Assembly: GCA_964605495.1 (NCBI GenBank)
Contig: CAZSCW010000001.1
Location: 4,843 to 43,931 of the forward strand
Reading direction: 5' to 3'
From: an uncultured Candidatus Saccharibacteria bacterium
GTDB taxonomy: Bacteria > Patescibacteriota > Minisyncoccia > Phycocordibacterales > UBA1006
Length of the DNA: 39,089 nucleotides
Shown here: positions 25,136 through 38,568 of the stretch, one piece after another
How the letters are laid out: every line of letters begins with the position of its first letter
Numbering within the stretch: position 1 is the first letter of the stretch
Notes under the pieces: generated by a model
What the model was told of the DNA's origin: nothing
The model's database searches: none
What the model saw: only the letters and a program-made list of their open reading frames with translations
Program-made: the position numbers and the translations under genes

Positions 25136-25148
25136 TCATATTTATATT

Positions 25149-25454: not shown

Positions 25455-25456
25455 TT

Positions 25457-25487
25457 AAAAAACACTCAATATAATTGAGTGTTTTTT
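25457..25487 (+). terminator. intrinsic terminator
   Basis: AAAAAACACTCAAT ata ATTGAGTGTTTTTT. Confidence 0.8.
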
Positions 25488-25582
25488 AATAAAAAATCCA
25501 ACCACTAAAAAGAGTGATTGGATGGATTTGATGATTCTGACTCCCTGTATTTTTCTAGTATCAGTGTATCATATTAAGGTAC

Positions 25583-25679
25583 TTGACTATTTTCTTAGAT
25601 AGGCTATACTATTGATAGGGTTTTTATGTTCCTAGACTTTAGGGTTTGGTCAGTCTGCAATGGACTGGCCAATTTTTTT
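25583..25679 (+). ncRNA. candidate sRNA unit 1
   Basis: TTGACT(25583)-16 nt-TATACT(25605), then ~60 nt, then the terminator TTGGTCAGTC/GACTGGCCAA plus T7 (25646-25679). Confidence 0.3.
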
Positions 25680-25684
25680 ACCTA

Positions 25685-25806
25685 TTGACTTATTTTTCAG
25701 AAATAGTATCCTCGTAAAAAGGTACTCTAATAATTGTTTTCAGCAATTTGGTTTTCATAGTTTTATGGTTTTTGGGCCCAACGAGCTTTTAGTTCGTTGG
25801 GTTTTT
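25685..25806 (+). ncRNA. candidate sRNA unit 2
   Basis: TTGACT(25685)-16 nt-TATCCT(25707), then ~85 nt, then the terminator CCCAACGA/TCGTTGGG plus T5 (25777-25806). Confidence 0.3.
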
Positions 25807-25827
25807 ATTTGGCTTATATTTTGTTTC

Positions 25828-25904
25828 TATAATACAATAGAACTAACCCCACATTTTTAAATAGTTAGTTTAGTAGGCACCACGTTATATACGTGGTGTT
25901 TTTT
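25828..25904 (+). ncRNA. candidate sRNA unit 3
   Basis: TATAAT(25828) with a weak -35, then the terminator CACCACGT tatat ACGTGGTG plus T6 (25878-25904). It overlaps the 5' end of track ORF 25893, so pcrA must start downstream. Confidence 0.25.
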
Positions 25905-25949
25905 ATTTTCAATTTTGGAACCATGGCACACAGTGTTATACTCATACAC

Positions 25950-27902
25950 ATGAACGAAACTCTTCCAAAAATGAACAATGAATTTTCTTATCTACAAGAT
26001 CTTAATCCAGAACAGCAAAGAGCAGTATTGCATATTAACGGACCACTGTTAATTGTTGCTGGTGCAGGAACTGGTAAAACAAAAACATTAACATATCGTA
26101 TACTTCATTTAATTAATAACGGTGTTTCTGCCGAACACATTTTAGCGATTACGTTTACCAATAAAGCAGCAGCAGAAATGCGCGAACGTTTACACAACAT
26201 GTTAGGTGAACATCGGTTAATGCCAATGATGAAAACATTCCATGGGCTGGGTGTGTATATTTTACGAACATTTTATCAAGAGGCAAAACTGCGTAAAGAA
26301 TTTGTGATTATGGACACCACTGATACCACACGGTTGATAAAAGATTGTATGGAGGAATTATCAATTGATCCAAAACAATATGATCCACGTACTATTAAAA
26401 CAATTATTAGTAATGCAAAAAATGCAGGTAAAAATATTTTTGATTTTGAGGCGGATATTTATAATCCAGTAACTGATAATGCGGTTAAAATTTGGCGACT
26501 ATATGAACAAAAAAAACAACTCGAACACGCACTTGATTTTGATGATTTATTAGTAAAAACAAAAGAACTACTGGAAACCAATGTTGAAGTCCGGACTAAA
26601 CTCCAGAATAAATTTAAATACGTACATATTGATGAGTATCAGGATACCAACGAAATCCAATATCAGGTTGCAAAAATACTGGCGGGTACAGCACATAACA
26701 TTTGTGCTGTAGGAGATACGGACCAAAACATTTACAGTTGGCGTGGAGCAAATATCAAAAATATGTTGAATTTCGAACGTGATTTTCCAGGAACAGTAAC
26801 TATATTATTAGAACAAAATTACCGATCAACGAAAAATATTCTATCTGTTGCTGATGCAATCATTACTAAAAATACTTCACGTATTGATAAGACCTTACGT
26901 ACAGAAAAACATGATGGAGAATCGGTAACTGTATTTGTAGGATTGAATGAGGGACATGAGGCACGTTTGGTAGTCAGTGAAATAAAAGATTTGATTAATG
27001 GTGGAATTCCTGCAACAGAAATTGCAATATTGTTCAGAACTCATTTCCAATCACGAGCATTAGAAGAGGCATGTCTGCATGCAGAAATTCCGTATCAGGT
27101 ATTGGGTGTAAAATTCTTTGAACGAAAAGAAATCAAGGATCTGGTGTCCTATATTCGTGCATCGGTAAACCCAGATAGTTTGTCAGATATAAAACGCGTC
27201 ATTAATGAACCAAAGCGCGGTATTGGAAAAGTTGCACTGGCAAAGATTTTTGCAGGGCAGGCTGCTGATCTGTCAGGTGCAGCAGGGGGTGGTTATCGTG
27301 ATTTTCAGAATATTCTACATGATATTAGAAAATTATGTTCGGAAAAAATTCCATCAGAGGTAGTTCGTTATGCAATTCATCGATCAGGAATGTTTACGAT
27401 GTACAGCAATGGATCAGCAGATGAACGTGAACGACTGGAAACGATGGAGGAATTGGTAACGTATGCATTACGCTACGACGATTTTCCAATTGGTGAGGGA
27501 TTACTGCAGATGCTCGAGGATATTTCACTCCTTTCAGAACAGGATAATATTCGTGATGATCGTCCAGCGGTTCGTTTGATGACCGTGCATGCTGCAAAGG
27601 GGCTCGAATTTGATTATGTATTTGTAACAGGAATGGAGCAGGGATTATTTCCACATGCAGGTTATGATCAGAAAAAAGGTAAAGAGGAACAAGAGGAAGA
27701 GCGTAGATTGTTTTATGTGGCGGTAACACGTGCACGAGAACGATTATATTTGTCTCATGCATATGCTCGAACGGTGTATGGTCAACAGAATTTTAATGCA
27801 CCATCTGAATTCCTATCAGATATTCCAGGAACACTTTTGGATTATCCAGATACTGGAGATATTCCTGATGAGCCATTGAAAACTGTATATCTAGAATGGT
27901 AA
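25950..27902 (+). CDS. pcrA: UvrD/PcrA-type ATP-dependent DNA helicase
   Basis: LNPEQQRAV, AGAGTGKTKTLT (Walker A), HIDEYQDTN, QNYRS, VHAAKGLEF, YVAVTRA motifs. Start 25950 or 25971. Confidence 0.9.
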   Translation: MNETLPKMNNEFSYLQDLNPEQQRAVLHINGPLLIVAGAGTGKTKTLTYRILHLINNGVSAEHILAITFTNKAAAEMRERLHNMLGEHRLMPMMKTFHGLGVYILRTFYQEAKLRKEFVIMDTTDTTRLIKDCMEELSIDPKQYDPRTIKTIISNAKNAGKNIFDFEADIYNPVTDNAVKIWRLYEQKKQLEHALDFDDLLVKTKELLETNVEVRTKLQNKFKYVHIDEYQDTNEIQYQVAKILAGTAHNICAVGDTDQNIYSWRGANIKNMLNFERDFPGTVTILLEQNYRSTKNILSVADAIITKNTSRIDKTLRTEKHDGESVTVFVGLNEGHEARLVVSEIKDLINGGIPATEIAILFRTHFQSRALEEACLHAEIPYQVLGVKFFERKEIKDLVSYIRASVNPDSLSDIKRVINEPKRGIGKVALAKIFAGQAADLSGAAGGGYRDFQNILHDIRKLCSEKIPSEVVRYAIHRSGMFTMYSNGSADERERLETMEELVTYALRYDDFPIGEGLLQMLEDISLLSEQDNIRDDRPAVRLMTVHAAKGLEFDYVFVTGMEQGLFPHAGYDQKKGKEEQEEERRLFYVAVTRARERLYLSHAYARTVYGQQNFNAPSEFLSDIPGTLLDYPDTGDIPDEPLKTVYLEW

Positions 27903-27904
27903 AC

Positions 27905-27939
27905 AAAAACAACTCAAAATGAGTTGTTTTTGTTTTTTT
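27905..27939 (+). terminator. terminator after pcrA
   Basis: AAAAACAACTC aaaat GAGTTGTTTTT followed by a T-run. Confidence 0.8.
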
Positions 27940-27940
27940 G

Positions 27941-28011
27941 TGCGGCGTAAGGGAATCGAACCCTTATCTACTGCTTGGAAGGCAGTCATTCTACCACTAA
28001 ACTAACACCGC
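27941..28011 (-). tRNA. tRNA-Gly(TCC)
   Basis: The reverse complement folds as acceptor GCGGTGT/ACGCCGC, anticodon arm ACTGC-CTTCCAA-GCAGT, T-arm AAGGG-TTCGATT-CCCTT. No encoded CCA. Confidence 0.9.
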
Positions 28012-29570: not shown

Positions 29571-30335
29571 ATGCAAGAGCGAATCAAAAAATTTCTCCAG
29601 GATATTGGCCTTTCTGAAAAAGAGGCAGCCGTGTATCTGTCGTTACTATCAGTAGACAGTGCATCTGTAATTGAACTTTCAAAATCAACTGATATCAATC
29701 GAACAACATTATATCCAATTTTGGACGATTTGATTGCAAAAAAACTCGTTGTTGAGATAAAGCACGATAAAAAGGTTCGTTTTCAAGCAGAACCACCAGA
29801 ACGCATTGAAACATATGTTCAAAATCGAAAAAATCAGTTAGAGGAACAGGAAAAAGTGTTAGAGGATATTATTCCACAAATGCGTGGGTTTTCACGACAA
29901 ACAGGCGAAAAGCCGATTGTTAAAATATACGAAGGTCACGATGGAATATTGGATGCCATGAGTGATTATTATGAATTTTTAGGTAAAGATCAGGATGCAT
30001 ATTTAGTGTATTCACGAGATCTTATTGAATCTGCATTTTCAAAAAAGGAATTGGAACAAATAAAACAGAAGCGTTTAGGTAAAAATATTCCAGCAAGTGC
30101 AATTTATACGAAGAGCGATGGAGACTATACAACAGAATTGTCACCAAATCAGTTGCGAGTTGATGCTGAAAAATATCCAATTTTGGCAGATATTGCTGTG
30201 CTAGGTGACAGGGTTCGATTCATTACATTAAAACGAAATCTATCTGCTATTTTAATTAAGAACCAGGATATTGCTGAAACATTACAAAGCTTGATTAAAT
30301 TGGTATTAGATTCGCAAAATAATAACCGCACATAA
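29571..30335 (+). CDS. TrmB-like winged-helix transcriptional regulator (paralog 1)
   Basis: N-terminal LQDIGLSEKEAAVYLSLLSVDSASVIELSKSTDINRTTLYPILDDLIAKKLV, TrmB-type wHTH. ~170-aa C-domain. Confidence 0.8.
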   Translation: MQERIKKFLQDIGLSEKEAAVYLSLLSVDSASVIELSKSTDINRTTLYPILDDLIAKKLVVEIKHDKKVRFQAEPPERIETYVQNRKNQLEEQEKVLEDIIPQMRGFSRQTGEKPIVKIYEGHDGILDAMSDYYEFLGKDQDAYLVYSRDLIESAFSKKELEQIKQKRLGKNIPASAIYTKSDGDYTTELSPNQLRVDAEKYPILADIAVLGDRVRFITLKRNLSAILIKNQDIAETLQSLIKLVLDSQNNNRT

Positions 30336-30352
30336 AAGTGCGGTTATAGTGT

Positions 30353-30659
30353 GGAAAAGTTCTCGATAGCAAATAAATATATTAAATACATGATTTGTTT
30401 TTGCTTTTCGATCGTAATGGTGATTAACCCCTTGGGTTGGTGTGAAGGCGCTGGTACATATTGCTATGCCAGTTTTCTGAGGCCTTCACACCGGACGCGG
30501 TTAATGGTCCATAAGTAGATCTGTTCTAAAGAATTTACGTCAACTCAAGTTGTTTTTACGTTGAGCTGGTTGTTGTCATCTTTTTCTAATCAGAAACCTG
30601 ATTAGAAGTAATGACTTTTCCGAACGTTTGATGATCTACCGAGAACTTTCTCGTTTTTT
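30353..30659 (+). ncRNA. candidate ~300-nt structured RNA
   Basis: - No ORF.
- 30353-30369 pairs with 30636-30652 (14 WC + 1 GU of 17).
- Internal perfect stems are GGTGTGAAGGC/GCCTTCACACC (30439-49 / 30482-92) and TTCTAATCAG-aaac-CTGATTAGAA (30584-30607).
- T6 at 30654-59. Confidence 0.4.
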
Positions 30660-30930
30660 GGTTGCTTAGTGTCCCATTTTTCATTGTTAATTTTTAAAGA
30701 ATTGATTTACCTACCAAGTATAGCAGATTCTAAAAATATGTCAAGCTTTTTGCAAAAATAGTCTATCTTTTTCGTCAGGGTAGGCTTTTTTGTAATAATT
30801 TTAATTTTTTCCATTAAATATTTTTATAGAAATATGTCAAATTTTAGTATATTTTGTCTATTTAAAACAACAAAATATCCTTTATTTATAATGATTAATA
30901 TAGTTATCCACAGTTTTATGTCGAAATGAT

Positions 30931-30959
30931 TTGACAAAATATAATGAATCTGCTATACT
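30931..30959 (+). promoter_or_regulatory. strong sigma70-type promoter firing into the noncoding rsr leader
   Basis: TTGACA-17 nt-TATACT. A perfect DnaA box TTATCCACA sits at 30904-30912 just upstream. Confidence 0.6.
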
Positions 30960-31181
30960 GCAATTAAGAACGTGAGATACAGTCATGTTCAATACCGCGA
31001 GATACATAAAAACTGTTTAATTCTTTAGACAGACTCTTGAAACCAAGTCCACTTGATATCAGCCATATGGTTGGTATCTGGAATAGTTGGAATCAGGTAC
31101 GTCACCGAATGACGTTAAATGTCGGCGCAATCATATGCGATATTGAATAATTCTTTTACAAAAAAATAAAACTATATAACT

Positions 31182-31349
31182 ATGCCAAAAACACCGAAAG
31201 ATATCTGGAAATTAACAGTTGCCCTACTGGACCAAAACGGCTTTACCACTCGTGGTGAAAAGAAAAAAGACGCACAGAAGAAAAAGAAGCAATTCTTTTT
31301 TGAAAAGCGATTACTTACTAATCCGGTTGGGAATGGAAAACACCGTTAA
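31182..31349 (+). CDS. possible 55-aa basic small protein in the leader
   Basis: Hand-translated MPKTPKDIWKLTVALLDQNGFTTRGEKKKDAQKKKKQFFFEKRLLTNPVGNGKHR*. No clear RBS. Confidence 0.25.
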   Translation: MPKTPKDIWKLTVALLDQNGFTTRGEKKKDAQKKKKQFFFEKRLLTNPVGNGKHR

Positions 31350-31399
31350 GTTACCATCTGTCTCTCTTGCAGGTTTTGGCGTAGCCAAAGAGAATGTTC

Positions 31400-31474
31400 A
31401 TAATCGTAACTGATTATGATCTTTATCCAGATTATGAAGCAATTCATAGTTTGGTAGAGATGTTCTTTCAAAAA
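31400..31474 (+). ncRNA. A-type RNA module, copy A1 (variant)
   Basis: Small hairpin ATAATC/GATTAT, then CTTTATCCAGATTATGAAG-caat-TCATAGTTTGGTAGAG, then tail ATGTTCTTTCAAAA. Confidence 0.5.
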
Positions 31475-31547
31475 TCTTGAAAGGAATATCCCCAGCATCA
31501 TTTATAAAACGGAGATGGTGTTTGGAATATTCCTTTCGAGGAGAAAA
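31475..31547 (+). ncRNA. C-type RNA module, copy C1
   Basis: TCTTGAAAGGAATATCC ... GGAATATTCCTTTCGAGGAGAAAA, a ~16-bp stem. Confidence 0.5.
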
Positions 31548-31811
31548 ACAATAGGCTGGTGTCAGGACCACAACATCTCTGAATTTACATTCGAACTAAA
31601 TCGGATATAAATGTGGGATTGTTTGCAGAAATATTAAAAAATAATTCTTTGATAAGAGAAAGTAGGAAGATGCAAGAGCTTAGTCATTTCGACTATGTAT
31701 CGTCTATCCTATGATCCGCCTTTCTGATCAAAAGGTTTCAAATTTCTTGGCAGGGTATTACAACTATATCCTTATCTATAAGCATGACGATGTGAAATGG
31801 TAAAATTTTTC

Positions 31812-31921
31812 GGGAAATTGTTTTGCAATCGAGCAAAACAATTTCCCTTCTTATCAGGATCATAACTAATACAAAAAGTTATGGTTCTGTAGGAAGTAAT
31901 GGTCCTACTGTTCTTTTAAAA
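31812..31921 (+). ncRNA. A-type RNA module, copy A2
   Basis: Perfect 15-bp hairpin GGGAAATTGTTTTGC/GCAAAACAATTTCCC, then TTCTTATCAGGATCATAA-13 nt-TTATGGTTCTGTAGGAAG, then tail ...CTGTTCTTTTAAAA. Confidence 0.55.
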
Positions 31922-32692
31922 ATTGTTCACCAAACCGTTCTGCTTCTCAACCTGTGTTGTCGCGCAGGGCCATTATCCGTAAGGATATGGCGTTCCCTTG
32001 GATCTACTTGTCGCTGACTATTATTTCCCGGCTTGGAAATGATGGAAGACTACCTATCCGAGGTTACTTCGCAAATCTAACAAATAAAATTATGTTTTAC
32101 TGTTGGTGGATTCTCAATTCTCGACCAGAGGATTGTAGGGTTTACCAACGCAAACCGAGAAGCAGAGGGTGTGACTACCTGGGGCGGTTACCCAAACAGT
32201 CCAAGCGTTAGCAATCTTGATTATTATTTTCTTTATCATGCATTCCCATCAACCAGGAAGCCAATGTTTCAAAAAGAAACGTTGGCTTCTATCATCGGGA
32301 ATGATATGTTAGGAAAATAATTTTCAAGTCGTTTGGAATGATCATGTGCGCAGTGATTGTTCGAACCAAAGGTTGGTACTCCTTTGGAAGTTGTTAGGAT
32401 GATTCAGGAAATTCTTCTAGAGCTATTCAATGGTCTGGCCGGACTATTGATAGACGTGAAGGGTTTCCTGACATCCGAAATGTCCCGGCACTATGTCAGG
32501 ACAGTTACCTTATTCGCCTCTTGTCGCTTGATCTTTGATTTCTATACCAATAGAGAGAAAAGAAACGACTGCAGAATTAGGTTACTTCGCAGAAAAGTCT
32601 TTTTATTTCGGCGGGGATCCTGTTCCGTACAGACGATACCGCCAGGCCTTGGGATTGAACATAATGTTCAATCCCTTCTTATCAGGATCATA
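31879..32692 (+). ncRNA. ~0.8-kb ORF-poor, highly structured segment between modules A2 and A3
   Basis: Multiple long stems:
- 32244-32300: CATTCCC...GGAAGCCAATGTTTC-aaaaa-GAAACGTTGGCTTC...GGGAATG
- CCTGACAT/ATGTCAGG at 32467-32499
- long-range TCTGCTTCTC (31939-48) pairing with GAGAAGCAGA (32156-65). Confidence 0.4.
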
Positions 32693-32728
32693 AAGTAATT
32701 TGTGATTCTGTAGGAATTTGTTCTTTGA
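32651..32728 (+). ncRNA. A-type RNA module, copy A3 (immediately upstream of rsr)
   Basis: GGGATTGAAC-ataat-GTTCAATCCC, then TTCTTATCAGGATCATAA-loop-TGTGATTCTGTAGGAA, then tail TTTGTTCTTTGA. Confidence 0.55.
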
Positions 32729-32758
32729 TTTTAAAATAATTCTGTTGCTGACGATTTG

Positions 32759-32813
32759 TTTATTTGGTGAAAAAGGGGGTTAAATCACATGTGACTCTCT
32801 TTCACCAAATAAA
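32759..32813 (+). promoter_or_regulatory. perfect 14-bp hairpin ending 9 nt before the rsr ATG
   Basis: TTTATTTGGTGAAA (32759-72) pairs with TTTCACCAAATAAA (32800-13). The 27-nt loop contains AAGGGGG. Confidence 0.5.
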
Positions 32814-32822
32814 ATTTCGTCT

Positions 32823-34427
32823 ATGACTACTATACATACTATTACCGCTGCTTTTGCTGGAAGATCTACAGAATCATCTCATGTTAATCATGCAGGTGGT
32901 ACATCTTTCAGAAGATCCTTGTGGGAACAACTCCTACAAGTACTCAGCACGAATACCTTGAGTGATACATTTTATGTGAAGAAGGAGCAGCTTGCTTCGG
33001 AAACCATAGATGTGATCATGGAGGCTCGTGAAAAAGATCACCGTTTCCTCGCACAAGCAATTGTGTGGGCGCGTAGAGATGGTTTAATGAAATTGGTTCC
33101 GACACTTGCTCTCGCGATTCTTTCTGGAAAGAAAGGTATCGAGCCGCAATTGTTTTTGAACACGTTTCAGCAAACAATCTTGACGCCGGATGATCTCCGC
33201 ACATTCGTTTCAATCATCAAGTCTGGTGTAGTGCCAGGCAGAAGAGGAATTGGTGGAGTGGTGCGCGATGCTGTTCGTACTTGGATGGGTGGTATTTCCG
33301 AATATCATGCTGTTAAGTACGGCTCGGTTAATTCCGATGGAGTTACACTCCGCGACATCTTGCGCCTGACTCACCCGAAACCATCTTCTGATGTGTTGAA
33401 CGAGCGTTTTGGATGGCTTGCAGGTTCGCGCAAGGGAGACCTTACGTTGAATCCGCAGATTTTGTCATTGGAAAAATTGAAGCGTGCAACAACCGAAGAA
33501 GAGATAGTTCAATTGGTTCGCCAAGGAAGACTACCCTACGAGGTTGTGGTGCCGTCAGTTCCGAAGATGACAAAGGCTGTGTGGGCCGAGCTGTTACGAC
33601 AAGCTCCGTACATGAACCTACTTCGAAACTTACGTTCGTTCCGCGAACATGGAGTTTTTGAAGACCAGGCAAATGTCGAGTACGTTGTTGGCAGACTCAC
33701 CGATCCGCGTGCGGTTGAGGCAAGTCGAGTATTACCATTCCGCTTTTTTGATGCGTTAAAAGCTTTCACATTCACCTCTGCACCCGACATGCAGATACGT
33801 GATGCGATAGCGAGCGGGCTTGAATTGTCATTTGTGAATCTTCCGAATTTCGGTTCGGAGACACATGTGACAATTGGTTCAGATGTCAGTGGTTCAATGT
33901 CATCTTATTCAATCTCTGAAAAGAGCGAGACTAAGTGCATTGATATCTGTGGTGTCTTTACCGGAGCTCTCTTAAAACGTAGCGAAAATGTACTTACACT
34001 TCCATTCGAGGGACATGTTGTACATTTGCCACTTTCAAAGCACGACAGCATCGCTGAAACGGCTCGAAAGATTGCAAGTGTGCGAGGTGGTTCCACAGCG
34101 GTTGGTGCACCAATACAATACCTGCTTGATCGTAAGATTAAGACAGATGTATTCATTGGTATCACTGACAACGAGGATTGGGCATATGGATCAGGACACG
34201 CAGTGTCAGGTAAATTTTACGACTTGTGGTTACGCTACAAGAAGGAAATTAACCCAAATGCGAAAGCATTTCTGGTAACCATTCTCCCATACCGCGACGC
34301 TGTAGCCCCTGAGGGCTCGGATGTTCATTTCATCTACGGATGGAGTGAGAAGGTATTGAATTATATTGCTTTGAAAATATCTACAGGCGCGAGTCAGGTA
34401 GATAAGATCAGAACGATAGAAGTTTGA
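32823..34427 (+). CDS. rsr: Ro60-related protein Rsr (TROVE domain + vWA domain)
   Basis: 534 aa. N-terminal NHAGGTSF...LSDTFY and ...AQAIVWARRDGLMKLVPTLALAIL match the TROVE pattern of Ro60/Rsr. The C-terminal vWA has the MIDAS motif DVSGSM. Visibly higher G+C than its neighbours. Confidence 0.85.
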   Translation: MTTIHTITAAFAGRSTESSHVNHAGGTSFRRSLWEQLLQVLSTNTLSDTFYVKKEQLASETIDVIMEAREKDHRFLAQAIVWARRDGLMKLVPTLALAILSGKKGIEPQLFLNTFQQTILTPDDLRTFVSIIKSGVVPGRRGIGGVVRDAVRTWMGGISEYHAVKYGSVNSDGVTLRDILRLTHPKPSSDVLNERFGWLAGSRKGDLTLNPQILSLEKLKRATTEEEIVQLVRQGRLPYEVVVPSVPKMTKAVWAELLRQAPYMNLLRNLRSFREHGVFEDQANVEYVVGRLTDPRAVEASRVLPFRFFDALKAFTFTSAPDMQIRDAIASGLELSFVNLPNFGSETHVTIGSDVSGSMSSYSISEKSETKCIDICGVFTGALLKRSENVLTLPFEGHVVHLPLSKHDSIAETARKIASVRGGSTAVGAPIQYLLDRKIKTDVFIGITDNEDWAYGSGHAVSGKFYDLWLRYKKEINPNAKAFLVTILPYRDAVAPEGSDVHFIYGWSEKVLNYIALKISTGASQVDKIRTIEV

Positions 34428-34728
34428 TATCTTTGAAGGGATGTTGATATTTGGCGATCGGACCGGTTTCACACTGCTTACTACTACCGATAGCAAGGTA
34501 GCGTACAAGTATTTTTTCAAACGGAAAAAATGCGGAGCAGCCGGTTGGCAACAGAAAGTACCTTGCTTGCGAGGGAAAAAGTGAAGAAGGTATCAGATTC
34601 CGCCTTTTAAAATAATTGGAATCACTATATAGACTATTTCGTCATGTTTGCGAAAGCACATGAATATCCTCGCCTTGGTGGAAAACGAAAAGGTGAAATA
34701 GTCAGCGGTTACCAGAAATGGATCCGCA

Positions 34729-34779
34729 CCTGTCCTGAAATGTATATTTCAGCTGATGAGTCCAACAGGACGAAACAGG
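34729..34779 (+). ncRNA. type III hammerhead ribozyme HHR-1
   Basis: CCUGU-C(cut after 34734)-[CUGAAAU guau AUUUCAG]-CUGAUGA-[GUCC aaca GGAC]-GAA-ACAGG. All core nucleotides are present, with a GUC cleavage triplet and stem III open. Confidence 0.9.
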
Positions 34780-34798
34780 AATTGATATCGTGAATTAC

Positions 34799-34837
34799 AA
34801 CAAAACCGCTTGATTGCGGTTTTGTTGTTTCTTTTTC
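34799..34837 (+). terminator. intrinsic terminator right after HHR-1
   Basis: AACAAAACCGC ttgatt... GCGGTTTTGTT followed by a T-rich tail. Confidence 0.65.
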
Positions 34838-34858
34838 TACTCGTGCTATAATTTTGTT

Positions 34859-35407
34859 ATGAAAAGTATTAATACCATTAAAAATACAATAAAACATCAT
34901 CAATCAACCATTACTAAAATAATAATGGTTGTAGTAGTAATTGGATCAGCTTTTGCAGTACATCATGTAATGGCAGCTGATATTCCTGCAGCACCAAATC
35001 CTGCAAAATTGGTAAATGATAATGCAGGAATGTTGAGCGCTGAGCAAATTTCAACACTCGAGAAAAAATTACGAGCATATAATGATTCGACAACTAATCA
35101 AATAGTAATTGTAACAGTGCCAAGTATTGGAATGTACGCAATTGATGATTATGCAAACCGATTAGCAAATCAATGGGGAATTGGAGTTAGCGGAAAAGAT
35201 AATGGAATTTTGGTATTAGTTGCAAAAGGTGAAAAACAAATTGATATTGAAGTTGGTACACGCATGGATGCATCTGTAACTGATATTGATGCAAAACGAG
35301 TTATTGATCAACAAATGGTTCCAGCGTTCAGTAAAAAGGATTACTATGGAGGACTGACAGCGGCAGTTGATAAGTTAATTGCAACTATTACAGCACATCC
35401 TTTATAA
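34859..35407 (+). CDS. TPM-domain (YgcG-like) protein
   Basis: Signal/TM, then VNDNAGMLSAEQISTLEKKLRAYNDSTTNQIVIVTV...GILVLVAKGEKQIDIEVG. Start at MKSINT (34859), behind TATAAT at 34845. Confidence 0.85.
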   Translation: MKSINTIKNTIKHHQSTITKIIMVVVVIGSAFAVHHVMAADIPAAPNPAKLVNDNAGMLSAEQISTLEKKLRAYNDSTTNQIVIVTVPSIGMYAIDDYANRLANQWGIGVSGKDNGILVLVAKGEKQIDIEVGTRMDASVTDIDAKRVIDQQMVPAFSKKDYYGGLTAAVDKLIATITAHPL

Positions 35408-35410
35408 ATA

Positions 35411-35443
35411 AAAACACCTCATTCCGCAGAATGAGGTGTTTTT
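35411..35443. terminator. bidirectional terminator
   Basis: CACCTCATTC cgca GAATGAGGTG with A/T runs. Confidence 0.7.
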
Positions 35444-36218
35444 ATTTTGCCTGTATCCACAGTGTTTCAAAAATCATTTTCGCAAATTCGTAAATAGATT
35501 TATTGGTGATTACAATAGAATGTAATCCCTGATCCCAAATAGTAAATGTCACGTGATTTTTCCAGATAGAACAATGCAAATTCGGATTGAGTATTTTTTT
35601 TGAAATAATTCGTGTATCACGCAGTTTTAATCGTGATTCTTTTAGTTCGTCTTTTGCCATAGGGGATTCGGTAATAATGTTTCGTGCTGTAATACCTTTT
35701 TTCCGGCGAGCTTTACCATACCCATGCAGACGATCCTTTGCAACAGTAAATTTCTCAACTTCACCAGAAATACGTAACACTTCTCCATTTTTATCTTGAT
35801 CAAGTGACCTAAAAAACAAATCAATAAAACCGTCTTCACCTTCCAAGTGTTCTACATCTATTTGTTCAGTTTCGCCACGTAATGCAAAAAACGTACGAAG
35901 TTCTGGAAAAACAGATTCTAATGACTCCATTTTTTGTGTTGCAATTATTTTTTCATACTCTACAAAGTTTTTTATTTTTTCAGGTTTTTCAATATACATC
36001 ATGCGCCGCTTACCAAGTTTGGTTACACCCAAAACTTTTCTCTCAAGGAGGTTTTCAGTAGCTACATGTACCGTCGAACGGGGAAGTTTCACCCCAGATG
36101 CAATATCTGCAATAGTCGAAAGTCCAGATTTAAACAAGTAAAAAATAACCTGCTGTTCGGCCATGTCCAACCCAATAGTTTTTAATGCTGTTTTAATATC
36201 TTTTGGTATTTCAATCAT
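35442..36218 (-). CDS. TrmB-like winged-helix transcriptional regulator (paralog 2)
   Basis: LKTIGLDMAEQQVIFYLFKSGLSTIADIASGVKLPRSTVHVATENLLERKVL. Same length and architecture as 29571..30335. Confidence 0.8.
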   Translation of the reverse strand: MIEIPKDIKTALKTIGLDMAEQQVIFYLFKSGLSTIADIASGVKLPRSTVHVATENLLERKVLGVTKLGKRRMMYIEKPEKIKNFVEYEKIIATQKMESLESVFPELRTFFALRGETEQIDVEHLEGEDGFIDLFFRSLDQDKNGEVLRISGEVEKFTVAKDRLHGYGKARRKKGITARNIITESPMAKDELKESRLKLRDTRIISKKILNPNLHCSIWKNHVTFTIWDQGLHSIVITNKSIYEFAKMIFETLWIQAK

Positions 36219-36342
36219 GATTACAGTGTAGCATATATGTTTAAAATGACCAATTTTTATGACACTTTTAAAATATAATACTAATTTATAAAGGATATAT
36301 TCAAAATAATAATTAAAGTATTAGTATTTAGTGTCATTTTAC

Positions 36343-36371
36343 TTGACTTTTCATGTATACCATGCTATACT
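36343..36371 (+). promoter_or_regulatory. sigma70-type promoter firing into noncoding modules
   Basis: TTGACT-17 nt-TATACT. An inverted repeat ATGACAC..ATACTAAT / ATTAGTAT..GTGTCAT (36259-36337) abuts the -35. Confidence 0.55.
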
Positions 36372-36434
36372 GGTTGTAGAAAGATGAGATAAGAAAAACA
36401 TCTTTCATAAAAATTGTTCATTAAAAAACAACAT

Positions 36435-36572
36435 ATGAAAAGAATAAGAGAGTTTTTTGAAAATTTTAGTGATGATCACCCATTCATCACAGCAATAATG
36501 GTATTAGCTGTTATTGTTTATGTATGTCACTGGTTAGGTGTGCATACATCCTTGTCTGGCATTGACAGATAA
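36435..36572 (+). CDS. possible 45-aa hydrophobic peptide
   Basis: Hand-translated MKRIREFFENFSDDHPFITAIMVLAVIVYVCHWLGVHTSLSGIDR*. One TM-like stretch. No clear RBS. Confidence 0.3.
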   Translation: MKRIREFFENFSDDHPFITAIMVLAVIVYVCHWLGVHTSLSGIDR

Positions 36573-36586
36573 ATGCAAAGGAAAAT

Positions 36587-36665
36587 GGACGAGCCTTTAT
36601 AAAATCGTCCACATTATTCAGCTCACGAATTTCGCGAGTTGATAGTGTAACAATGTTCTTTGAAA
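36587..36665 (+). ncRNA. B-type RNA module, copy B1
   Basis: GGACGA-12 nt-TCGTCC, then CATTATTCAG-CTCACGAatttCGCGAG-TTGATAGTG, then tail AATGTTCTTTGAAA. Confidence 0.5.
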
Positions 36666-36668
36666 TAA

Positions 36669-36730
36669 TCTCGAAAGGAATATTCTGCATATCAGAATAT
36701 GATGAATAGAATATTCCTTTCGAGGAGAAA
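36669..36730 (+). ncRNA. C-type RNA module, copy C2
   Basis: TCTCGAAAGGAATATTC ... GAATATTCCTTTCGAGGAGAAA. Confidence 0.5.
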
Positions 36731-36844
36731 GCACTTCTTGTTTTGGTTGTTGAACAGGAAAGTAGAGACCTGCTCTCTCATGACACAACAACCAGCCTCG
36801 TATAGTTTGATGGAACTATGCTGTGGCGTATTTGCTCCATCATA

Positions 36845-36928
36845 GGGAAGTGTATAAGCAGAAACACTTCCCTTTCTTATCAGGATCATAAAACAATTTG
36901 TGGTTCTGTAGGGAAATGTTCTTTGAAA
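36845..36928 (+). ncRNA. A-type RNA module, copy A4
   Basis: GGGAAGTGT-10 nt-ACACTTCCC, then TTTCTTATCAGGATCATAA-loop-TGTGGTTCTGTAGGGAA, then tail ATGTTCTTTGAAAAG. Confidence 0.55.
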
Positions 36929-36931
36929 AGA

Positions 36932-36981
36932 TTTAATTGGTTACCTAAGTTTCTTACCAGAAATTTAGGTAACCAATTAAA
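36932..36981 (+). promoter_or_regulatory. perfect 17-bp hairpin ending 9 nt before the lipoprotein ATG
   Basis: TTTAATTGGTTACCTAA (36932-48) pairs with TTAGGTAACCAATTAAA (36965-81). 16-nt loop. Confidence 0.5.
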
Positions 36982-36990
36982 TTAAGAGAT

Positions 36991-37305
36991 ATGAAAAAGA
37001 TAAGTATTATCGCATTAGGATTCATAATGTTTTTGACTTCTTGTAAAAACGAAACCTATTACCAAGGTAAGGGTGTAGTTATTGAAGAAGACAGAACATA
37101 CTTTGGGGGTGTGCAAGTGAAAGTATCAGTTGATACTGCAGGAGATGGTAACCAGATTTGGTTCTGGGCATCTCCTGCAGGTTTTGCTGATAGCTATCAC
37201 CGCTATTCTCAAGGTGACACCGTAGACGTTGAATACATGGCATTCAATAGTTGGGTCAGTCCTGTGACGGAAAAGTCCAAACAAGACAGCGCTGAAGTAC
37301 AGTAA
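36991..37305 (+). CDS. small lipoprotein, hypothetical
   Basis: MKKISIIALGFIMFLTSC has an LTSC lipobox. 104 aa. Confidence 0.7.
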   Translation: MKKISIIALGFIMFLTSCKNETYYQGKGVVIEEDRTYFGGVQVKVSVDTAGDGNQIWFWASPAGFADSYHRYSQGDTVDVEYMAFNSWVSPVTEKSKQDSAEVQ

Positions 37306-37377
37306 GCATGTCGCTGGCTAAGGTGCAAAACACCTTACACTCTTGTCTGAAAGAGGTAAAACTTCAGGAAGGAGAAC

Positions 37378-37455
37378 GGGCAAGCCTATATAAAATTGCC
37401 CTCATTATTCAACTCACGAATTTCGTGAGTTGATAGTGTAAGTAGTTCTTTAAAA
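37378..37455 (+). ncRNA. B-type RNA module, copy B2
   Basis: GGGCAA-12 nt-TTGCCC, then CATTATTCAA-CTCACGAatttCGTGAG-TTGATAGTG, then tail TAGTTCTTTAAAA. The first stem is fully compensated relative to B1. Confidence 0.5.
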
Positions 37456-37679
37456 TGACAAATATTTTTTATGGAAGGTTTTATAGAATATCCCCAGTAT
37501 TGTATAGTTTTGGTATAACGCTGTACAAACTCGCTTATGATTCGGCACTATCCGACTCAATGATTGGCACCTGCATATGCCAAAGGAATTGGTTGATTTA
37601 CCAAATACCAATTTCAAAACTAGTAGGTTGATTATTCGTATGGGATTACGAACCTGTCTCTAGAAGATAAATGATCAAC

Positions 37680-37766
37680 GGAGAAACAAATGCCTTGGGA
37701 AATGTTTCTCCTCTTTATCCAATCCATGAAGTAATTCGTGGATTGGTAGAGAAAATGTTCGTTACA
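37680..37766 (+). ncRNA. A-type RNA module, copy A5 (variant)
   Basis: GGAGAAACA-14 nt-TGTTTCTCC, then TCTTTATCCAATCCATGAAG-taat-TCGTGGATTGGTAGAG, then tail AAAATGTTCGTTACAAAA. Confidence 0.5.
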
Positions 37767-37848
37767 AAAATATTTTCCAATCTATTAAATTCAGAAGATA
37801 ATAACTCTTAAATATTTTGGGTAAATTAACCAAATTTTTAAGTTAAGT

Positions 37849-38055
37849 ATGGAAAGATTAGATGTTTATATAGAGATAGGTGATCATTATTACTCTGGTC
37901 TCTATAAAAATTGCCCTGTAATATCTTCTGGTGATGACTGGGCTATTGTATATGTCGAGGTTGGCGATCATTATTACTCGGGAGAGTATAGAGTTCTGCT
38001 TTATGGTGATCGCTGGATGACTACAGACTACTATGGTTATCATTACGATGGGTGA
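37849..38055 (+). CDS. hypothetical 68-aa protein with an internal duplication
   Basis: VYIEIGDHYYSGLY and VYVEVGDHYYSGEY repeats; Y/G/D-rich. Confidence 0.5.
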   Translation: MERLDVYIEIGDHYYSGLYKNCPVISSGDDWAIVYVEVGDHYYSGEYRVLLYGDRWMTTDYYGYHYDG

Positions 38056-38178
38056 ACCCTCTCGCTCTAGAGGTATTGTCGTTAGACATGAGAGGTGCGT
38101 TTTGTCCCCGTCTTGCCGAAAAGATGGAGAGCCTCGAGGAAGCAGAGCCTCACGAGTGATTGCATCTTGCATCCTCGT

Positions 38179-38230
38179 TCTGTCCTAGAATGTATTATTC
38201 TAGCTGATGAGTCCAAAAGGACGAAACAGA
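38179..38230 (+). ncRNA. type III hammerhead ribozyme HHR-2
   Basis: UCUGU-C(cut after 38184)-[CUAGAAU guauu AUUCUAG]-CUGAUGA-[GUCC aaaa GGAC]-GAA-ACAGA. Stems I and III differ from HHR-1 only by compensatory pairs. Confidence 0.9.
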
Positions 38231-38268
38231 TTCTTTTACAAATTTCATAAACAAAAAAAACAGATAGC

Positions 38269-38568
38269 ATGGAAAAGAAATATTATCACTTAGAAAACCT
38301 TGATAAAATCATCACTAAAAAAATCGAGAGTGAACCACAACCACAAATGCAGTCACAGTCACATCTACCGCCAAACTGTATAGACTGTAAGCATCATCGT
38401 GTACTTCCTGACCCAGATCCCGATGATTGGTTCTGTGATGACGATGAAAAAGTTTTGTGTACCCTTGCGAAAAAATTAGTGACAGTCGCATGCAGGCCGC
38501 ACCACAAGCGAAAAGAATGCACGGTTCCGTCATGGTGCCCACTGCTGCAAGCAAACCAAACCGTATAA
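38269..38568 (+). CDS. hypothetical Cys-rich 99-aa protein
   Basis: Eight Cys (CIDC...FCDDDEKVLC...ACRPHHKRKEC...WC). Starts 39 nt after HHR-2. Confidence 0.55.
   Translation: MEKKYYHLENLDKIITKKIESEPQPQMQSQSHLPPNCIDCKHHRVLPDPDPDDWFCDDDEKVLCTLAKKLVTVACRPHHKRKECTVPSWCPLLQANQTV

What the first reader, a model, noticed from the sequence alone, without database searches (positions are those of the whole stretch)
34729..34779. Canonical type III hammerhead ribozyme 300 nt downstream of rsr
Every invariant core position is present: CUGAUGA, GAA, A15.1-U16.1, and a GUC cleavage triplet. The stems are:
- stem I, 7 bp (34735-41 / 34746-52) with a GUAU loop;
- stem II, GUCC/GGAC with an AACA loop;
- stem III, open, CCUGU/ACAGG.

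The predicted cut is between 34734 and 34735. It sits at the end of the rsr transcript, just before an intrinsic terminator (34799-34837). Cleavage would therefore trim the rsr mRNA and its 3'UTR to a 2',3'-cyclic phosphate end. Placing a hammerhead as a 3'-end-defining element of a Ro60 gene is not something I know to be described.
Basis: seen in the sequence. Interest (0 to 1): 0.7.

Follow-up and report, generated by a model that had tools for sequence, protein, structure and literature searches.

The report
Hammerhead ribozymes punctuating a Ro60 locus
The sequence is a genuine self-cutting hammerhead RNA, one of a conserved set that sits between the Ro60 (rsr) gene, newly seen structured RNAs and neighbouring genes in ultra-small CPR bacteria; the ribozyme type is ordinary, but this gene context appears undescribed and gives a testable role for bacterial hammerheads.

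Summary
Window 34729-34779 (+) is a complete type III hammerhead with a predicted cut at 34734/34735.

- **Chance:** the core pattern occurs twice in the window against 0.01 expected. Rfam Hammerhead_3 scores 40.6 bits, below the curated cutoff of 48.5.
- **Second copy:** another hammerhead lies at 38179-38230.
- **Family:** 25 distinct homologous hammerheads occur in 11 of 35 CPR (Patescibacteria) rsr lineages, all on the rsr strand. Of 23 counted, 21 lie within 1.7 kb of rsr. Pairing is 97.7%, and 14 of 16 pairs show changes on both sides.
- **Position:** a hammerhead 246-336 nt after the rsr stop recurs in six lineages. Five related loci without one have a terminator hairpin at that place.
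- **The "3'UTR":** it is a conserved pseudoknotted RNA that matches no Rfam family.
- **Typical context:** many members sit 18-35 nt before the next ATG. This copy is atypical, because only a terminator follows it. Its 97% relative has an ORF there, and its 90% relative lacks the ribozyme.

The same ribozyme design is common in phage contigs that lack rsr. I rate it a new member of a known kind, in a new context.

The parts
32823..34427 (+). rsr (Ro60 ortholog, 534 aa)
   Evidence: Pfam TROVE and vWA_Ro60 match. Homologs are named '60 kDa SS-A/Ro ribonucleoprotein' by their sources.
34458..34585 (+). Class A RNA core. Layout: UCGG, P1 (ACCGG/CCGGU), a 7-nt bulge UUUCACA, hairpin P1b, invariant UGGCAACAGAAA, hairpin P2, then GUGAA pairing with the bulge (a pseudoknot).
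   Evidence: Found 69-122 nt after the rsr stop in at least 8 distinct lineages. P1, P1b, P2 and the pseudoknot all change in a compensating way. No Rfam match at E <= 10.
34705..34727 (+). Hairpin GCGG...CCGC directly 5' of the ribozyme. It would be the 3'-terminal hairpin of the upstream cleavage product, followed by ACCUGUC>p.
   Evidence: Present in the MFE folds. By eye, several other family members also have a hairpin abutting stem III.
34729..34779 (+). Hammerhead 1, type III. The predicted cut is between C34734 and C34735.
   Evidence: Sequence read directly. RF00008 scores 40.6 bits. The family model R1 scores 76 bits, though this sequence was in R1's training set. The MFE is the hammerhead fold.
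34797..34838 (+). Intrinsic terminator (13-bp hairpin plus U tract) that ends the rsr transcription unit.
   Evidence: Terminator scan. The same terminator is present in L051, which lacks the hammerhead.
38179..38230 (+). Hammerhead 2, type III. The predicted cut is between C38184 and C38185, 35 nt upstream of the ATG of the 99-aa ORF 38269-38568.
   Evidence: Regex hit. R1 scores 73.6 bits, though this sequence was in R1's training set. RF00008 scores 42.8 bits. Downstream ORF distance.
32061..32071 (+). Class C leader motif (AGGUUACUUCG), copy 1. It is part of RAGGACUGC-N5-6-YGAGGWUACUUCRA.
   Evidence: About 45 copies across the rsr loci, all on the rsr strand.
32579..32589 (+). Class C leader motif, copy 2.
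32676..32716 (+). Element X copy 2 (bulged-C hairpin), about 105 nt upstream of the rsr start. Five other lineages carry a hammerhead 147-359 nt upstream of rsr.
30931..30959 (+). Best sigma-70-like promoter upstream of the rsr RNA array (TTGACA-17-TATACT with an extended-10 TG).
   Evidence: This is a consensus match only. A paralogous copy lies at 36343-36371 (repeat D9).

Best explanation
**What it is.** Hammerhead 1 is an active type III self-cleaving ribozyme. It is transcribed as part of the rsr unit: possible promoter near 30931-30959, then class C leaders and element X hairpins, rsr, the class A RNA, the hammerhead and the terminator.

**What the cut does.** During or after transcription it cuts after C34734.
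- The upstream product is the rsr mRNA with, or later processed down to, the class A RNA. It ends in a hairpin (34705-34727) plus ACCUGUC carrying a 2',3'-cyclic phosphate. Only 6 nt of ribozyme remain on it.
- The downstream product is about 105 nt with a 5'-OH end. It carries the ribozyme body and the terminator.

**The family.** It belongs to a family of hammerheads that act as RNase-independent punctuation in rsr-centred multi-RNA operons of CPR bacteria. They separate conserved structured RNAs, rsr and small downstream cistrons. They stand where other lineages use an intrinsic terminator.

**This copy.** Only a terminator follows it in this genome. The net effect is therefore to trim the terminator hairpin and U tail from the rsr/class A transcript.

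**Shown versus inferred.**
- Shown: the motif, its conservation and covariation, and its strand and position linkage to rsr.
- Inferred: co-transcription, cleavage and the fate of the products.
For: - **Motif:** the core and helices are complete, and the hammerhead fold is the MFE.
- **Chance:** 0.01 expected against 2 found.
- **Rfam:** Hammerhead_3 is the only significant Rfam match in each of the two stretches that hold a hammerhead.
- **Covariation:** 12 independently found homologs are 97.4% paired, with 13 of 16 pairs changed on both sides. My search pattern did not require stems I and III. Twenty-five distinct sequences are 97.7% paired, with 14 of 16 pairs changed on both sides, against 30-47% paired in slid controls.
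- **Strand and position:** all hits with E <= 1e-3 are on the rsr strand. Of 23, 21 lie within 1.7 kb of rsr. Density is 0.187 per kb there against 0.011 per kb in the outer flanks of the same loci (p about 1e-7).
- **Recurrent placement:** a hammerhead 246-336 nt after the rsr stop, following a class A or B RNA, occurs in six lineages.
- **Terminator alternative:** class B loci without a hammerhead have a terminator hairpin at +310 to +355. The hammerhead-bearing loci have none there, except the window.
- **Downstream ORFs:** an ATG-initiated ORF starts 18-35 nt after the ribozyme in nine cases.
- **Precedents:**
  - Hammerhead arrays process polycistronic prophage RNAs (PMC3088659).
  - Theta ribozymes replace protein enzymes at tRNA 3' ends (PMC10879173).
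Against: - There is no cleavage or transcript-end data.
- The Rfam gathering score is not reached (40.6 against 48.5).
- A ribozyme 18 nt before a terminator looks redundant.
- The 90%, 83% and 79% Rsr relatives (L051-L053) and the 73-74% relatives (L007, L008) lack it, so it is dispensable for rsr function.
- Only 11 of 35 lineages carry any such hammerhead.
- The same ribozyme design occurs in 65 viral contigs without rsr, so the ribozyme is not rsr-specific.
- rsr-adjacent DNA is unusually poor in ORFs, which inflates the positional enrichment.
- Co-transcription of the whole array rests on consensus promoter and terminator scans only.
Confidence: 0.6

Rival explanations
1. **Stranded 5'-UTR element.** The selected job of this family is to cut just upstream of a downstream cistron. 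That gives the mRNA a 5'-OH end, a structured cap-like 5' end and a short A-rich leader, acting as a natural insulator. In this genome a rearrangement replaced the downstream cistron with a terminator. Hammerhead 1 may therefore still cleave but has no adaptive role for rsr.
For: - The L023 ortholog (97% Rsr identity) has an ATG 18 nt after the ribozyme and no terminator. Sequence identity with the window ends just 3' of the hammerhead.
- Nine family members have an ATG ORF start 18-35 nt downstream.
- By eye, many of the phage copies sit about 15-30 nt before an ATG.
- L051 (90%) has the same class A RNA and terminator with no hammerhead.
Against: - The copy is intact at every core position, and the two differences from L023 preserve structure (U-A to U.G, and one extra loop base).
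- The position after the class A or B RNA recurs across distant lineages.
- It alternates with terminators, so ending the upstream RNA seems part of the job.
- This rival and the best explanation are not mutually exclusive.
Confidence: 0.25
2. **Ribozyme-dependent biogenesis of Ro60 ligands.** The hammerheads exist to give rsr-linked RNAs (classes A, B, C) a defined single-stranded 3' tail ending in a 2',3'-cyclic phosphate. Rsr or its partner exonuclease would need or recognise that end, so the ribozyme would be functionally coupled to the Ro60 RNP.
For: - Strand and distance linkage to rsr is tight.
- The type III topology leaves only 6 nt on the upstream RNA.
- By eye, several members have a hairpin directly before stem III.
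- Known bacterial Y RNAs lie within 4 kb of rsr on the same strand (PMC4201824).
- In L021 a hammerhead abuts a 131-nt tRNA-like domain, which recalls the tRNA mimicry of YrlA.
Against: - No evidence shows that any of these RNAs binds Rsr.
- Class A lacks the GNCGAAN0-1G motif and has no tRNA-like domain.
- Most rsr lineages have no hammerhead.
- Many hammerheads precede ordinary ORFs.
- No rtcB or rtcA gene lies in the window.
- Eight viral Rsr loci have no such hammerhead.
Confidence: 0.12
3. **Chance or decayed motif.** The sequence has no catalytic activity.
For: - The Rfam score is below the gathering threshold.
- Stem II is short (4 bp), and both loops are small.
Against: - 0.01 matches are expected by chance.
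- A second copy lies in the window.
- 25 distinct homologs covary in all three stems.
- Every invariant core base is present.
- From my own knowledge, the design matches classic active virusoid and sTRSV hammerheads.
Confidence: 0.02
4. **Circular RNA or retrozyme-like unit.** The RNA between two hammerheads would be excised and ligated into a circle.
For: - There are two same-strand hammerheads in the window. Hammerhead products carry the 2',3'-cyclic-phosphate and 5'-OH ends that an RtcB-type ligase joins (general knowledge).
- Other loci have hammerheads 480-1170 nt apart.
Against: - The two window copies are 3.4 kb apart. A terminator, a gene with its own promoter and an opposite-strand gene lie between them.
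- No rtcB gene is in the window.
- No repeat structure suggests a mobile unit.
Confidence: 0.02

Closest known systems
Type III hammerhead ribozymes (Rfam RF00008), especially the sTRSV / plant virusoid design
   Same: - The catalytic core, the open stem III, the GUC/GUH cleavage triplet and the G10.1-C11.1 pair are identical.
- Stem I of 6-7 bp is closed by an (A)UGUGUAU-type loop.
- Stem II is GUCC-NAAA-GGAC.
- Two contigs of 366 and 377 nt found by my pattern (L073, L082) carry the same design. By size they are probably the VTMoV and SNMoV virusoids, which is my recollection and is not verified.
   Different: - It is encoded in DNA of a CPR bacterial chromosome, not in a circular RNA replicon.
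- It has a single polarity and shows no multimer processing.
- It scores 40-43 bits, below the 48.5-bit curated cutoff. None of 15 comparative loci gives a Hammerhead_3 match at the curated cutoff either, so standard annotation misses this subfamily.
Hammerhead arrays flanking genes in prophages and bacterial genomes (Perreault et al. 2011, PMC3088659)
   Same: - Several same-strand hammerheads flank single genes or short blocks.
- The proposed role is processing of polycistronic RNA.
- The distribution is patchy and modular.
   Different: - Those are described as mostly near integrases and in prophages, with no constant gene.
- Here the anchor gene is constant (rsr) across 11 lineages.
- The flanked units include conserved non-coding RNAs.
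- The neighbourhood is chromosomal housekeeping.
- All copies here are type III.
Theta (HDV-like) ribozymes next to phage tRNAs (Kienbeck et al. 2024, PMC10879173)
   Same: A small self-cleaving ribozyme abuts a small structured RNA and is proposed to replace protein RNases in forming its end.
   Different: - It is a different ribozyme class.
- The partner RNA there is a tRNA.
- The setting is phages, not CPR chromosomes.
Bacterial Y RNAs (YrlA/YrlB, Yrn1) next to rsr (Chen et al. 2014, PMC4201824)
   Same: Conserved non-coding RNAs lie within a few hundred nt of rsr on the same strand, often in more than one copy.
   Different: - Classes A, B and C and element X do not match the YrlA hallmarks or any Rfam family.
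- No ribozyme is mentioned in the parts of that paper I read, and its search entry shows no occurrence of 'hammerhead'.
RiboJ-type synthetic ribozyme insulators (own knowledge)
   Same: An sTRSV-type hammerhead in a 5' UTR cuts off upstream RNA and stays on the downstream mRNA.
   Different: - RiboJ is engineered.
- The natural copies here also define the end of an upstream structured RNA.

Membership tests
Hammerhead ribozyme, type III | Conserved core: C3 U4 G5 A6 N7 G8 A9 and G12 A13 A14 | tested here: met
   CUGAUGA is at 34753-34759 and GAA at 34772-34774. Both blocks are invariant in the 12 aligned homologs.
Hammerhead ribozyme, type III | A15.1-U16.1 pair and an NUH cleavage triplet | tested here: met
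   A34775 pairs with U34733, and the triplet is G-U-C 34732-34734. The pair is U-A in 24 of 25 homologs.
Hammerhead ribozyme, type III | Three helices around the core, with stems I and II closed and stem III open, supported by covariation | tested here: met
   The MFE of the 56-mer is exactly this fold. Pairing is 97.4-97.7%, and 13-14 of 16 pairs change on both sides, against 29-47% paired in slid controls.
Hammerhead ribozyme, type III | Rfam RF00008 curated gathering score (48.5 bits) | tested here: not met
   Scores are 40.6 bits for hammerhead 1, 42.8 for hammerhead 2 and 42.9 for L021. No Hammerhead_3 match reaches the curated cutoff in 15 comparative loci. The alignment shows a 4-base gap against the model in loop II and extra bases in loop I.
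Hammerhead ribozyme, type III | Loop I / loop II tertiary contact needed for fast cleavage at physiological Mg2+ | tested here: inconclusive
   The loop I and II sequences are conserved more than loops usually are: (A)UGURUAU in loop I and NAAA in loop II. From my own knowledge they resemble sTRSV and virusoid loops.
Hammerhead ribozyme, type III | Site-specific self-cleavage giving 2',3'-cyclic phosphate and 5'-OH ends | not testable with these tools
   This needs in vitro transcription or end-specific RNA-seq.
Prophage-type hammerhead arrays (Perreault 2011) | Several same-strand hammerheads flanking genes within one transcription unit | tested here: met
   There are two in the window, and two to four in L011, L012, L017, L020, L036 and L048, all on one strand.
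Prophage-type hammerhead arrays (Perreault 2011) | Prophage or integrase-linked context | tested here: inconclusive
   An integrase (22416-23396) lies 9.4 kb upstream of rsr. A tRNA gene (27941-28011) separates it from the rsr region. The HU ... TrmB-rsr ... RNase Y-ClpP-Tig neighbourhood recurs in L051, where no integrase was called in the fetched stretch. No phage structural genes were seen.
Bacterial Y RNA / YrlA (for the class A RNA that the ribozyme ends) | Encoded within about 4 kb of rsr on the same strand | tested here: met
   The class A motif starts 69-122 nt after the rsr stop in every confirmed lineage.
Bacterial Y RNA / YrlA (for the class A RNA that the ribozyme ends) | GNCGAAN0-1G motif near the 5' end | tested here: not met
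   I read all 8 distinct class A cores, and they start UCGGRYSGG with no GNCGAA.
Bacterial Y RNA / YrlA (for the class A RNA that the ribozyme ends) | tRNA-like domain (T and D arms) | tested here: not met
   No tRNA-clan or Y RNA match at E <= 10 in 34300-34900. The class A fold is a bulged stem, a hairpin and a pseudoknot.
Bacterial Y RNA / YrlA (for the class A RNA that the ribozyme ends) | Binds Ro60/Rsr | not testable with these tools
   This needs RIP-seq or EMSA.

The most novel reading that the evidence does not exclude
In CPR bacteria, type III hammerheads may be a built-in maturation step for a new set of Ro60-associated non-coding RNAs (class A and B pseudoknotted RNAs, class C leader RNAs, bulged-C element X hairpins, a mini tmRNA-like tRNA mimic). 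Self-cleavage would give them defined 2',3'-cyclic-phosphate 3' tails that the Rsr RNP recognises, or that shield them from its partner exonuclease. That would give bacterial hammerheads a concrete cellular function and reveal CPR-type Y RNAs.
Probability: 0.15. Interest if true: 0.8.

Novelty: new member of a known kind. Interest (0 to 1): 0.55.

Why it matters
**An open question becomes testable.** Apart from glmS, the cellular roles of bacterial self-cleaving ribozymes are called "largely elusive" (PMC6765202). Here a hammerhead family has a constant anchor gene (rsr/Ro60), a constant strand and recurrent positions. It also alternates with intrinsic terminators. That turns "what are bacterial hammerheads for?" into an experiment in a defined locus.

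**Annotation gap.** This hammerhead subfamily falls below Rfam's curated threshold, so standard annotation misses it.

**New RNAs.** Following the ribozyme uncovered several conserved, covarying RNAs around Ro60 in CPR bacteria that match no Rfam family. They are candidates for CPR Y-RNA analogues. These organisms have reduced genomes, and RNase-independent processing could matter there (my inference, not tested).

**Limits.** The ribozyme class and the idea of hammerhead punctuation of operons are not new.

Tried and rejected
- **Rfam scans.** The default scan of the window found only three tRNAs. Permissive scans of 30200-32900, 34300-34900 and 36200-38320 found no other ribozyme, Y RNA, YrlA or tRNA-like hit. 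The miRNA, snoRNA and sRNA hits are hairpin noise well below their cutoffs.
- **Class A as a YrlA-type Y RNA.** Rejected on motif and domain tests.
- **Class C as the Y RNA.** I looked for the GNCGAA motif. Class C has YGAGGWUACUUCRA instead, so this is inconclusive.
- **The GUUCUUU tag after hammerheads and element X.** I tested whether it pairs with the 5' GAGRAC of class C to close a Y-like stem. It can pair in L011, L012, L017 and L020, but only through G.U pairs with no covariation, and it fits poorly in the window. I left it unexplained.
- **Circular RNA idea.** Rejected: a terminator and an opposite-strand gene lie between the two copies, and there is no rtcB.
- **Prophage origin of the rsr region.** Not supported.
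- **Literature.** I searched for hammerhead or self-cleaving with Rsr, Ro60, TROVE or Y RNA, and for hammerhead, Ro60, Rsr or TROVE with CPR, Patescibacteria or Saccharibacteria. No relevant paper appeared among the top-ranked hits. The library lacks most subscription journals, so absence is not proof.
- **Viral Rsr loci.** No hammerhead.
- **ARAGORN on L021.** It finds no tmRNA, although Rfam's tmRNA model scores above its cutoff.

Full report
**1. The observation**

The layout is CCUGU C | CUGAAAU GUAU AUUUCAG CUGAUGA GUCC AACA GGAC GAA ACAGG, spanning 34729-34779 on the + strand. The scissile bond lies between C34734 and C34735.

The upstream ORF 32823-34427 is a Ro60 ortholog: Pfam TROVE and vWA_Ro60 match, and sources name its homologs "60 kDa SS-A/Ro ribonucleoprotein". 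A 13-bp terminator hairpin with a U tract lies at 34797-34838.

The match is not chance:
- The core pattern CTGATGAG-N8-20-CGAAA occurs twice in the window, against 0.01 expected from shuffles.
- Rfam's Hammerhead_3 model gives 40.6 bits, E = 2.2e-7, over its full length.
- The hammerhead fold is the MFE and centroid of the 56-mer. It survives in 141-nt and 413-nt contexts.

One caveat applies. The score is below Rfam's gathering cutoff of 48.5 bits, so a default Rfam scan reports only three tRNAs.

**2. A second copy, and a family**

A simple descriptor search over the window and fetched loci found a second hammerhead of the same build at 38179-38230. Its predicted cut is at 38184/38185, and RF00008 scores it 42.8 bits.

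The exact Rsr protein occurs on 22 metagenome contigs. Its relatives are Candidate Phyla Radiation (Patescibacteria) bacteria: Paceibacterota, Saccharibacteria, Parcubacteria, Falkowbacteria and Doudnabacteria.

I collected 16 rsr loci from species-representative genomes, 28 from metagenomes and 3 from intermediate relatives. I aligned twelve distinct hammerheads. They were found without any requirement for stems I or III. They are 97.4% paired, and 13 of 16 pairs change on both sides. None of 500 shuffles reached the observed pairing or covariation score, and slid controls are 29-46% paired.

A covariance model built from them (R1) finds 25 distinct sequences at E <= 1e-3 in the CPR loci. These are 97.7% paired, with 14 of 16 pairs changed on both sides. 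That second alignment is fitted to the model, so the first count is the cleaner test.

**3. Linkage to rsr**

- Every hit with E <= 1e-3 is on the rsr strand.
- With one locus per lineage, 11 of 35 lineages carry 23 hammerheads.
- Of these, 21 lie within 1.7 kb of rsr. Density is 0.187 per kb there against 0.011 per kb in the outer flanks of the same loci (binomial p about 1e-7).
- The window itself has none in the 30 kb upstream of the rsr region.
- Caveat: rsr-adjacent DNA is ORF-poor, which favours any intergenic element.

Two positions recur:
- 246-336 nt after the rsr stop: window/L023, L011, L012, L020, L036 and L048, plus L018 at +54.
- 147-359 nt before the rsr start: L011, L012, L017, L020 and L048.

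**4. What hammerhead 1 follows**

The 300-nt spacer is not an anonymous UTR. Its first part (core 34458-34585) is a conserved RNA that I call class A. Its motif starts 69-122 nt after the rsr stop in at least eight distinct lineages. Its parts are:
- **P1:** ACCGG/CCGGU, changing to AUGGG/CCCAU, AUCGG/CCGAU, GCCGG/CCGGC and ACGGG/CCCGU.
- **Bulge:** a 7-nt UUUCACA.
- **P1b:** a hairpin that differs in sequence in every lineage.
- **Invariant strand:** UGGCAACAGAAA.
- **P2:** a second hairpin, also different in every lineage.
- **Pseudoknot:** a 3' GUGAA that can pair with the bulge. L052 has AUUAC/GUAAU instead, a compensating change.

No Rfam family matches it. It lacks the GNCGAAN0-1G motif and the tRNA-like domain that define YrlA-type Y RNAs (PMC4201824).

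In Saccharibacteria, Parcubacteria, Falkowbacteria and Doudnabacteria loci the same position holds a longer conserved RNA, class B. Its conserved blocks are GCGCAGA...GUCUGACUGCGCG, UAAAAGACCGAAACC and GAUAAAUUAAGUGGGAG.

Class B loci without a hammerhead have a terminator hairpin at +310 to +355 (L013, L014, L015, L027, L035). The hammerhead-bearing loci have none there. Hammerhead and intrinsic terminator therefore look like alternative ways to end the rsr-proximal RNA.

**5. What usually follows the ribozyme**

In nine cases an ATG-initiated ORF begins 18-35 nt after the hammerhead. These include window hammerhead 2 (35 nt, before the 99-aa ORF 38269-38568) and the L023 ortholog of hammerhead 1 (18 nt). 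Others precede rsr itself. ORF listing is mechanical, but the recurrence is striking. The family is therefore best described as intercistronic punctuation. The upstream RNA keeps only 6 nt of ribozyme and gains a cyclic-phosphate end. The downstream RNA starts with a 5'-OH and carries the ribozyme body.

The window's hammerhead 1 is the exception, because a terminator starts 18 nt after it. The next gene (TPM-domain, ATG at 34859) has its own extended -10 box (TGCTATAAT, 34844-34852) and appears leaderless.

Close relatives show how modular this is:
- **L023** (97% Rsr identity) keeps the hammerhead, with a U-A to U.G change in stem I and one extra loop base. Its sequence diverges from the window just 3' of the ribozyme.
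- **L051** (90%) keeps the class A RNA and the identical terminator. An unrelated segment of about 85 nt, with a GGUAAAGC/GCUUUACC hairpin, replaces the hammerhead.
- **L052 and L053** (83% and 79%) and **L007 and L008** (73-74%) have class A but no hammerhead.

**6. How it most likely works**

*Shown:*
- The hammerhead motif is intact, conserved and covarying.
- It lies on the rsr strand, after a conserved RNA.

*Inferred:*
- It is transcribed with rsr.
- It cleaves after C34734.
- The rsr/class A RNA is left ending in the 34705-34727 hairpin plus ACCUGUC>p, and a fragment of about 105 nt (ribozyme plus terminator) is released.

I put 0.6 on the reading that it is an RNase-independent end-forming punctuation element of rsr-centred multi-RNA operons.

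The main rival (0.25) is that this copy is a stranded 5'-UTR element, whose selected role concerns a downstream cistron that this genome has lost. The two readings overlap.

A direct functional coupling to Ro60 is not excluded but has no direct support (0.12-0.15). In that reading the cyclic-phosphate-tailed RNAs would be Rsr ligands. Most rsr lineages lack hammerheads. No rtcB or rtcA gene lies in the window. Eight viral Rsr loci have none.

**7. Comparison with what is known**

- **Ribozyme class.** It is a standard type III hammerhead. A pattern for its specific design (stem I closed by AUGUNUAU, a short stem II) hits 65 viral contigs. None of them encodes Rsr. Two tiny contigs (366 and 377 nt) carry the same design and are probably plant virusoids. 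That identification is my recollection and is not verified.
- **Punctuation of operons.** Perreault et al. 2011 (PMC3088659) showed multiple hammerheads flanking genes in prophages and proposed processing of polycistronic RNAs.
- **Ribozymes ending small RNAs.** Kienbeck et al. 2024 (PMC10879173) showed ribozymes abutting tRNAs as substitutes for protein 3'-end processing enzymes.
- **State of the field.** The 2019 review (PMC6765202) says bacterial ribozyme roles remain largely elusive.
- **The rsr link.** I found no paper linking hammerheads to rsr, Ro60, Y RNAs or CPR bacteria. The library is incomplete.

My verdict is a new member of a known kind, in an apparently undescribed and unusually well-defined context.

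**8. By-products**

The rsr neighbourhood in these bacteria is dense with conserved RNA motifs that match no Rfam family. They are the class A and B RNAs, the class C leader, the bulged-C element X hairpin, a second repeated hairpin module, a recurrent GUUCUUU tag, and in L021 a 131-nt tmRNA-like tRNA mimic directly after a hammerhead. Details are listed under things noticed in passing.

Noticed in passing
window 38179-38230 (+): A second type III hammerhead. Its predicted cut is at 38184/38185, 35 nt upstream of the ATG of a 99-aa ORF. A conserved block GAGGAAGCAGAGCCUC (class D) precedes it, and the same block also precedes a hammerhead in L020.
   Followed up: yes
window 34458-34585 (+); also L005 ~9690-9800, L007, L008, L009, L040, L051, L052, L053 just 3' of rsr: The class A RNA is a conserved pseudoknotted motif with an invariant UGGCAACAGAAA. 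All helices covary. It is not in Rfam and does not look like a YrlA-type Y RNA. It could be a Ro60-linked RNA or a cis-regulatory 3' element.
   Followed up: partly
window 31420-31460, 31848-31895, 32676-32716, 36874-36914, 37712-37752 (+); also L008 2574, L009 6362, L036 1373, L051, L053 1641: Element X has a conserved outer stem of 7 bp (UCUUUAU/GUAGAGA or UUCUUAU/GUAGGAA). It also has a bulged C and an 11-13-bp inner stem that differs in every lineage but stays paired. It is always on the rsr strand. In the window it sits upstream of rsr and of small ORFs, much as hammerheads do in other genomes. It could be an RNase III site, a protein-binding (Ro-like bulged helix) site or an unknown ribozyme.
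   Followed up: partly
window 32046-32071 and 32566-32589 (+); about 45 copies in L007-L053: The class C leader is RAGGACUGC-N5-6-YGAGGWUACUUCRA, followed by non-conserved sequence. One or two copies lie within about 1 kb of rsr in most CPR lineages, always on the rsr strand. It is the most widespread rsr-linked element and a candidate for the conserved module of CPR Y-like RNAs.
   Followed up: partly
L011-L021, L027, L034-L039, L047: 40-150 nt after the rsr stop: The class B RNA is about 250-330 nt long. Its conserved blocks are GCGCAGA...GUCUGACUGCGCG, UAAAAGACCGAAACC (which resembles the vertebrate Ro-binding GGUCCGA) and GAUAAAUUAAGUGGGAG. It ends in a terminator or a hammerhead. No Rfam family reached its curated cutoff there.
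   Followed up: partly
L021 6170-6300 (+): A 131-nt match to the Rfam tmRNA model (56.9 bits, cutoff 47). It consists only of the tRNA-like domain (GGGGACGA...GGGUUCGAUUCCCCGGCGUCUCCACC), with no mRNA-like part. It starts 7 nt after a hammerhead and 620 nt after rsr. ARAGORN does not call it.
   Followed up: partly
window 36578-36650 and 37369-37441 (+): Two 86%-identical copies of another module. It is a small hairpin with a compensating change (GGACGA/UCGUCC against GGGCAA/UUGCCC) followed by a long hairpin CAUUAUUCARCUCACGAAUUUCGYGAGUUGAUAGUG. Each copy is followed by GUUCUUU.
   Followed up: no
window 31910, 32720, 36655, 36917, 37445, 38228; after most hammerheads in L011, L012, L017, L018, L020, L036, L048: A GUUCUUU(G/A/U)A tag recurs 3-12 nt after hammerheads, element X and the repeated hairpin module. 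An A-rich stretch and an ATG with no obvious Shine-Dalgarno sequence often follow it. Its function is unknown. Pairing with the 5' GAGRAC of class C is possible but unsupported by covariation.
   Followed up: partly
window 30931-30959 and 36343-36371 (+); repeats 30951/36363, 31470/36664, 31515/36699: Two paralogous ORF-poor arrays (about 30965-32820 and 36378-38270) each start with a near-consensus extended -10 promoter and share several repeated blocks. L005 encodes the identical Rsr protein. It has a different module set in the second array, including a second class A plus hammerhead pair. That is strain-level module swapping.
   Followed up: partly
window 34844-34861 (+): The TPM-domain gene appears leaderless. 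TGCTATAAT ends 7 nt before its ATG (34859), directly after the rsr terminator.
   Followed up: no
window 30322-30744 (-): There is a strong minus-strand promoter-like site (TTGACA-16-TATACT, 30744-30717) and a minus-strand terminator (30347-30322). They bracket about 370 nt with a long GGUGUGAAGGC...GCCUUCACACC hairpin and no long ORF. This may be a divergent small RNA.
   Followed up: no
L073 (366 nt) and L082 (377 nt), IMG/VR contigs: These two very small 'viral' contigs carry the same hammerhead design. Their sizes match the VTMoV and SNMoV virusoids, which is my recollection and is not verified.
   Followed up: no
window 29571-30335 (+) and 35442-36218 (-): Two TrmB-family regulator genes bracket the rsr RNA array. 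A TrmB-family gene is also called near rsr in L051 (upstream) and L053 (downstream, weak match). They may be regulators of the locus.
   Followed up: no
window 22416-28011: A tyrosine integrase, two unknown ORFs and a UvrD-type helicase lie next to a tRNA gene (27941-28011, minus strand). No counterpart was called upstream of the HU gene in the fetched stretch of the 90% relative L051. This may be a small integrated island, separate from the rsr region.
   Followed up: no
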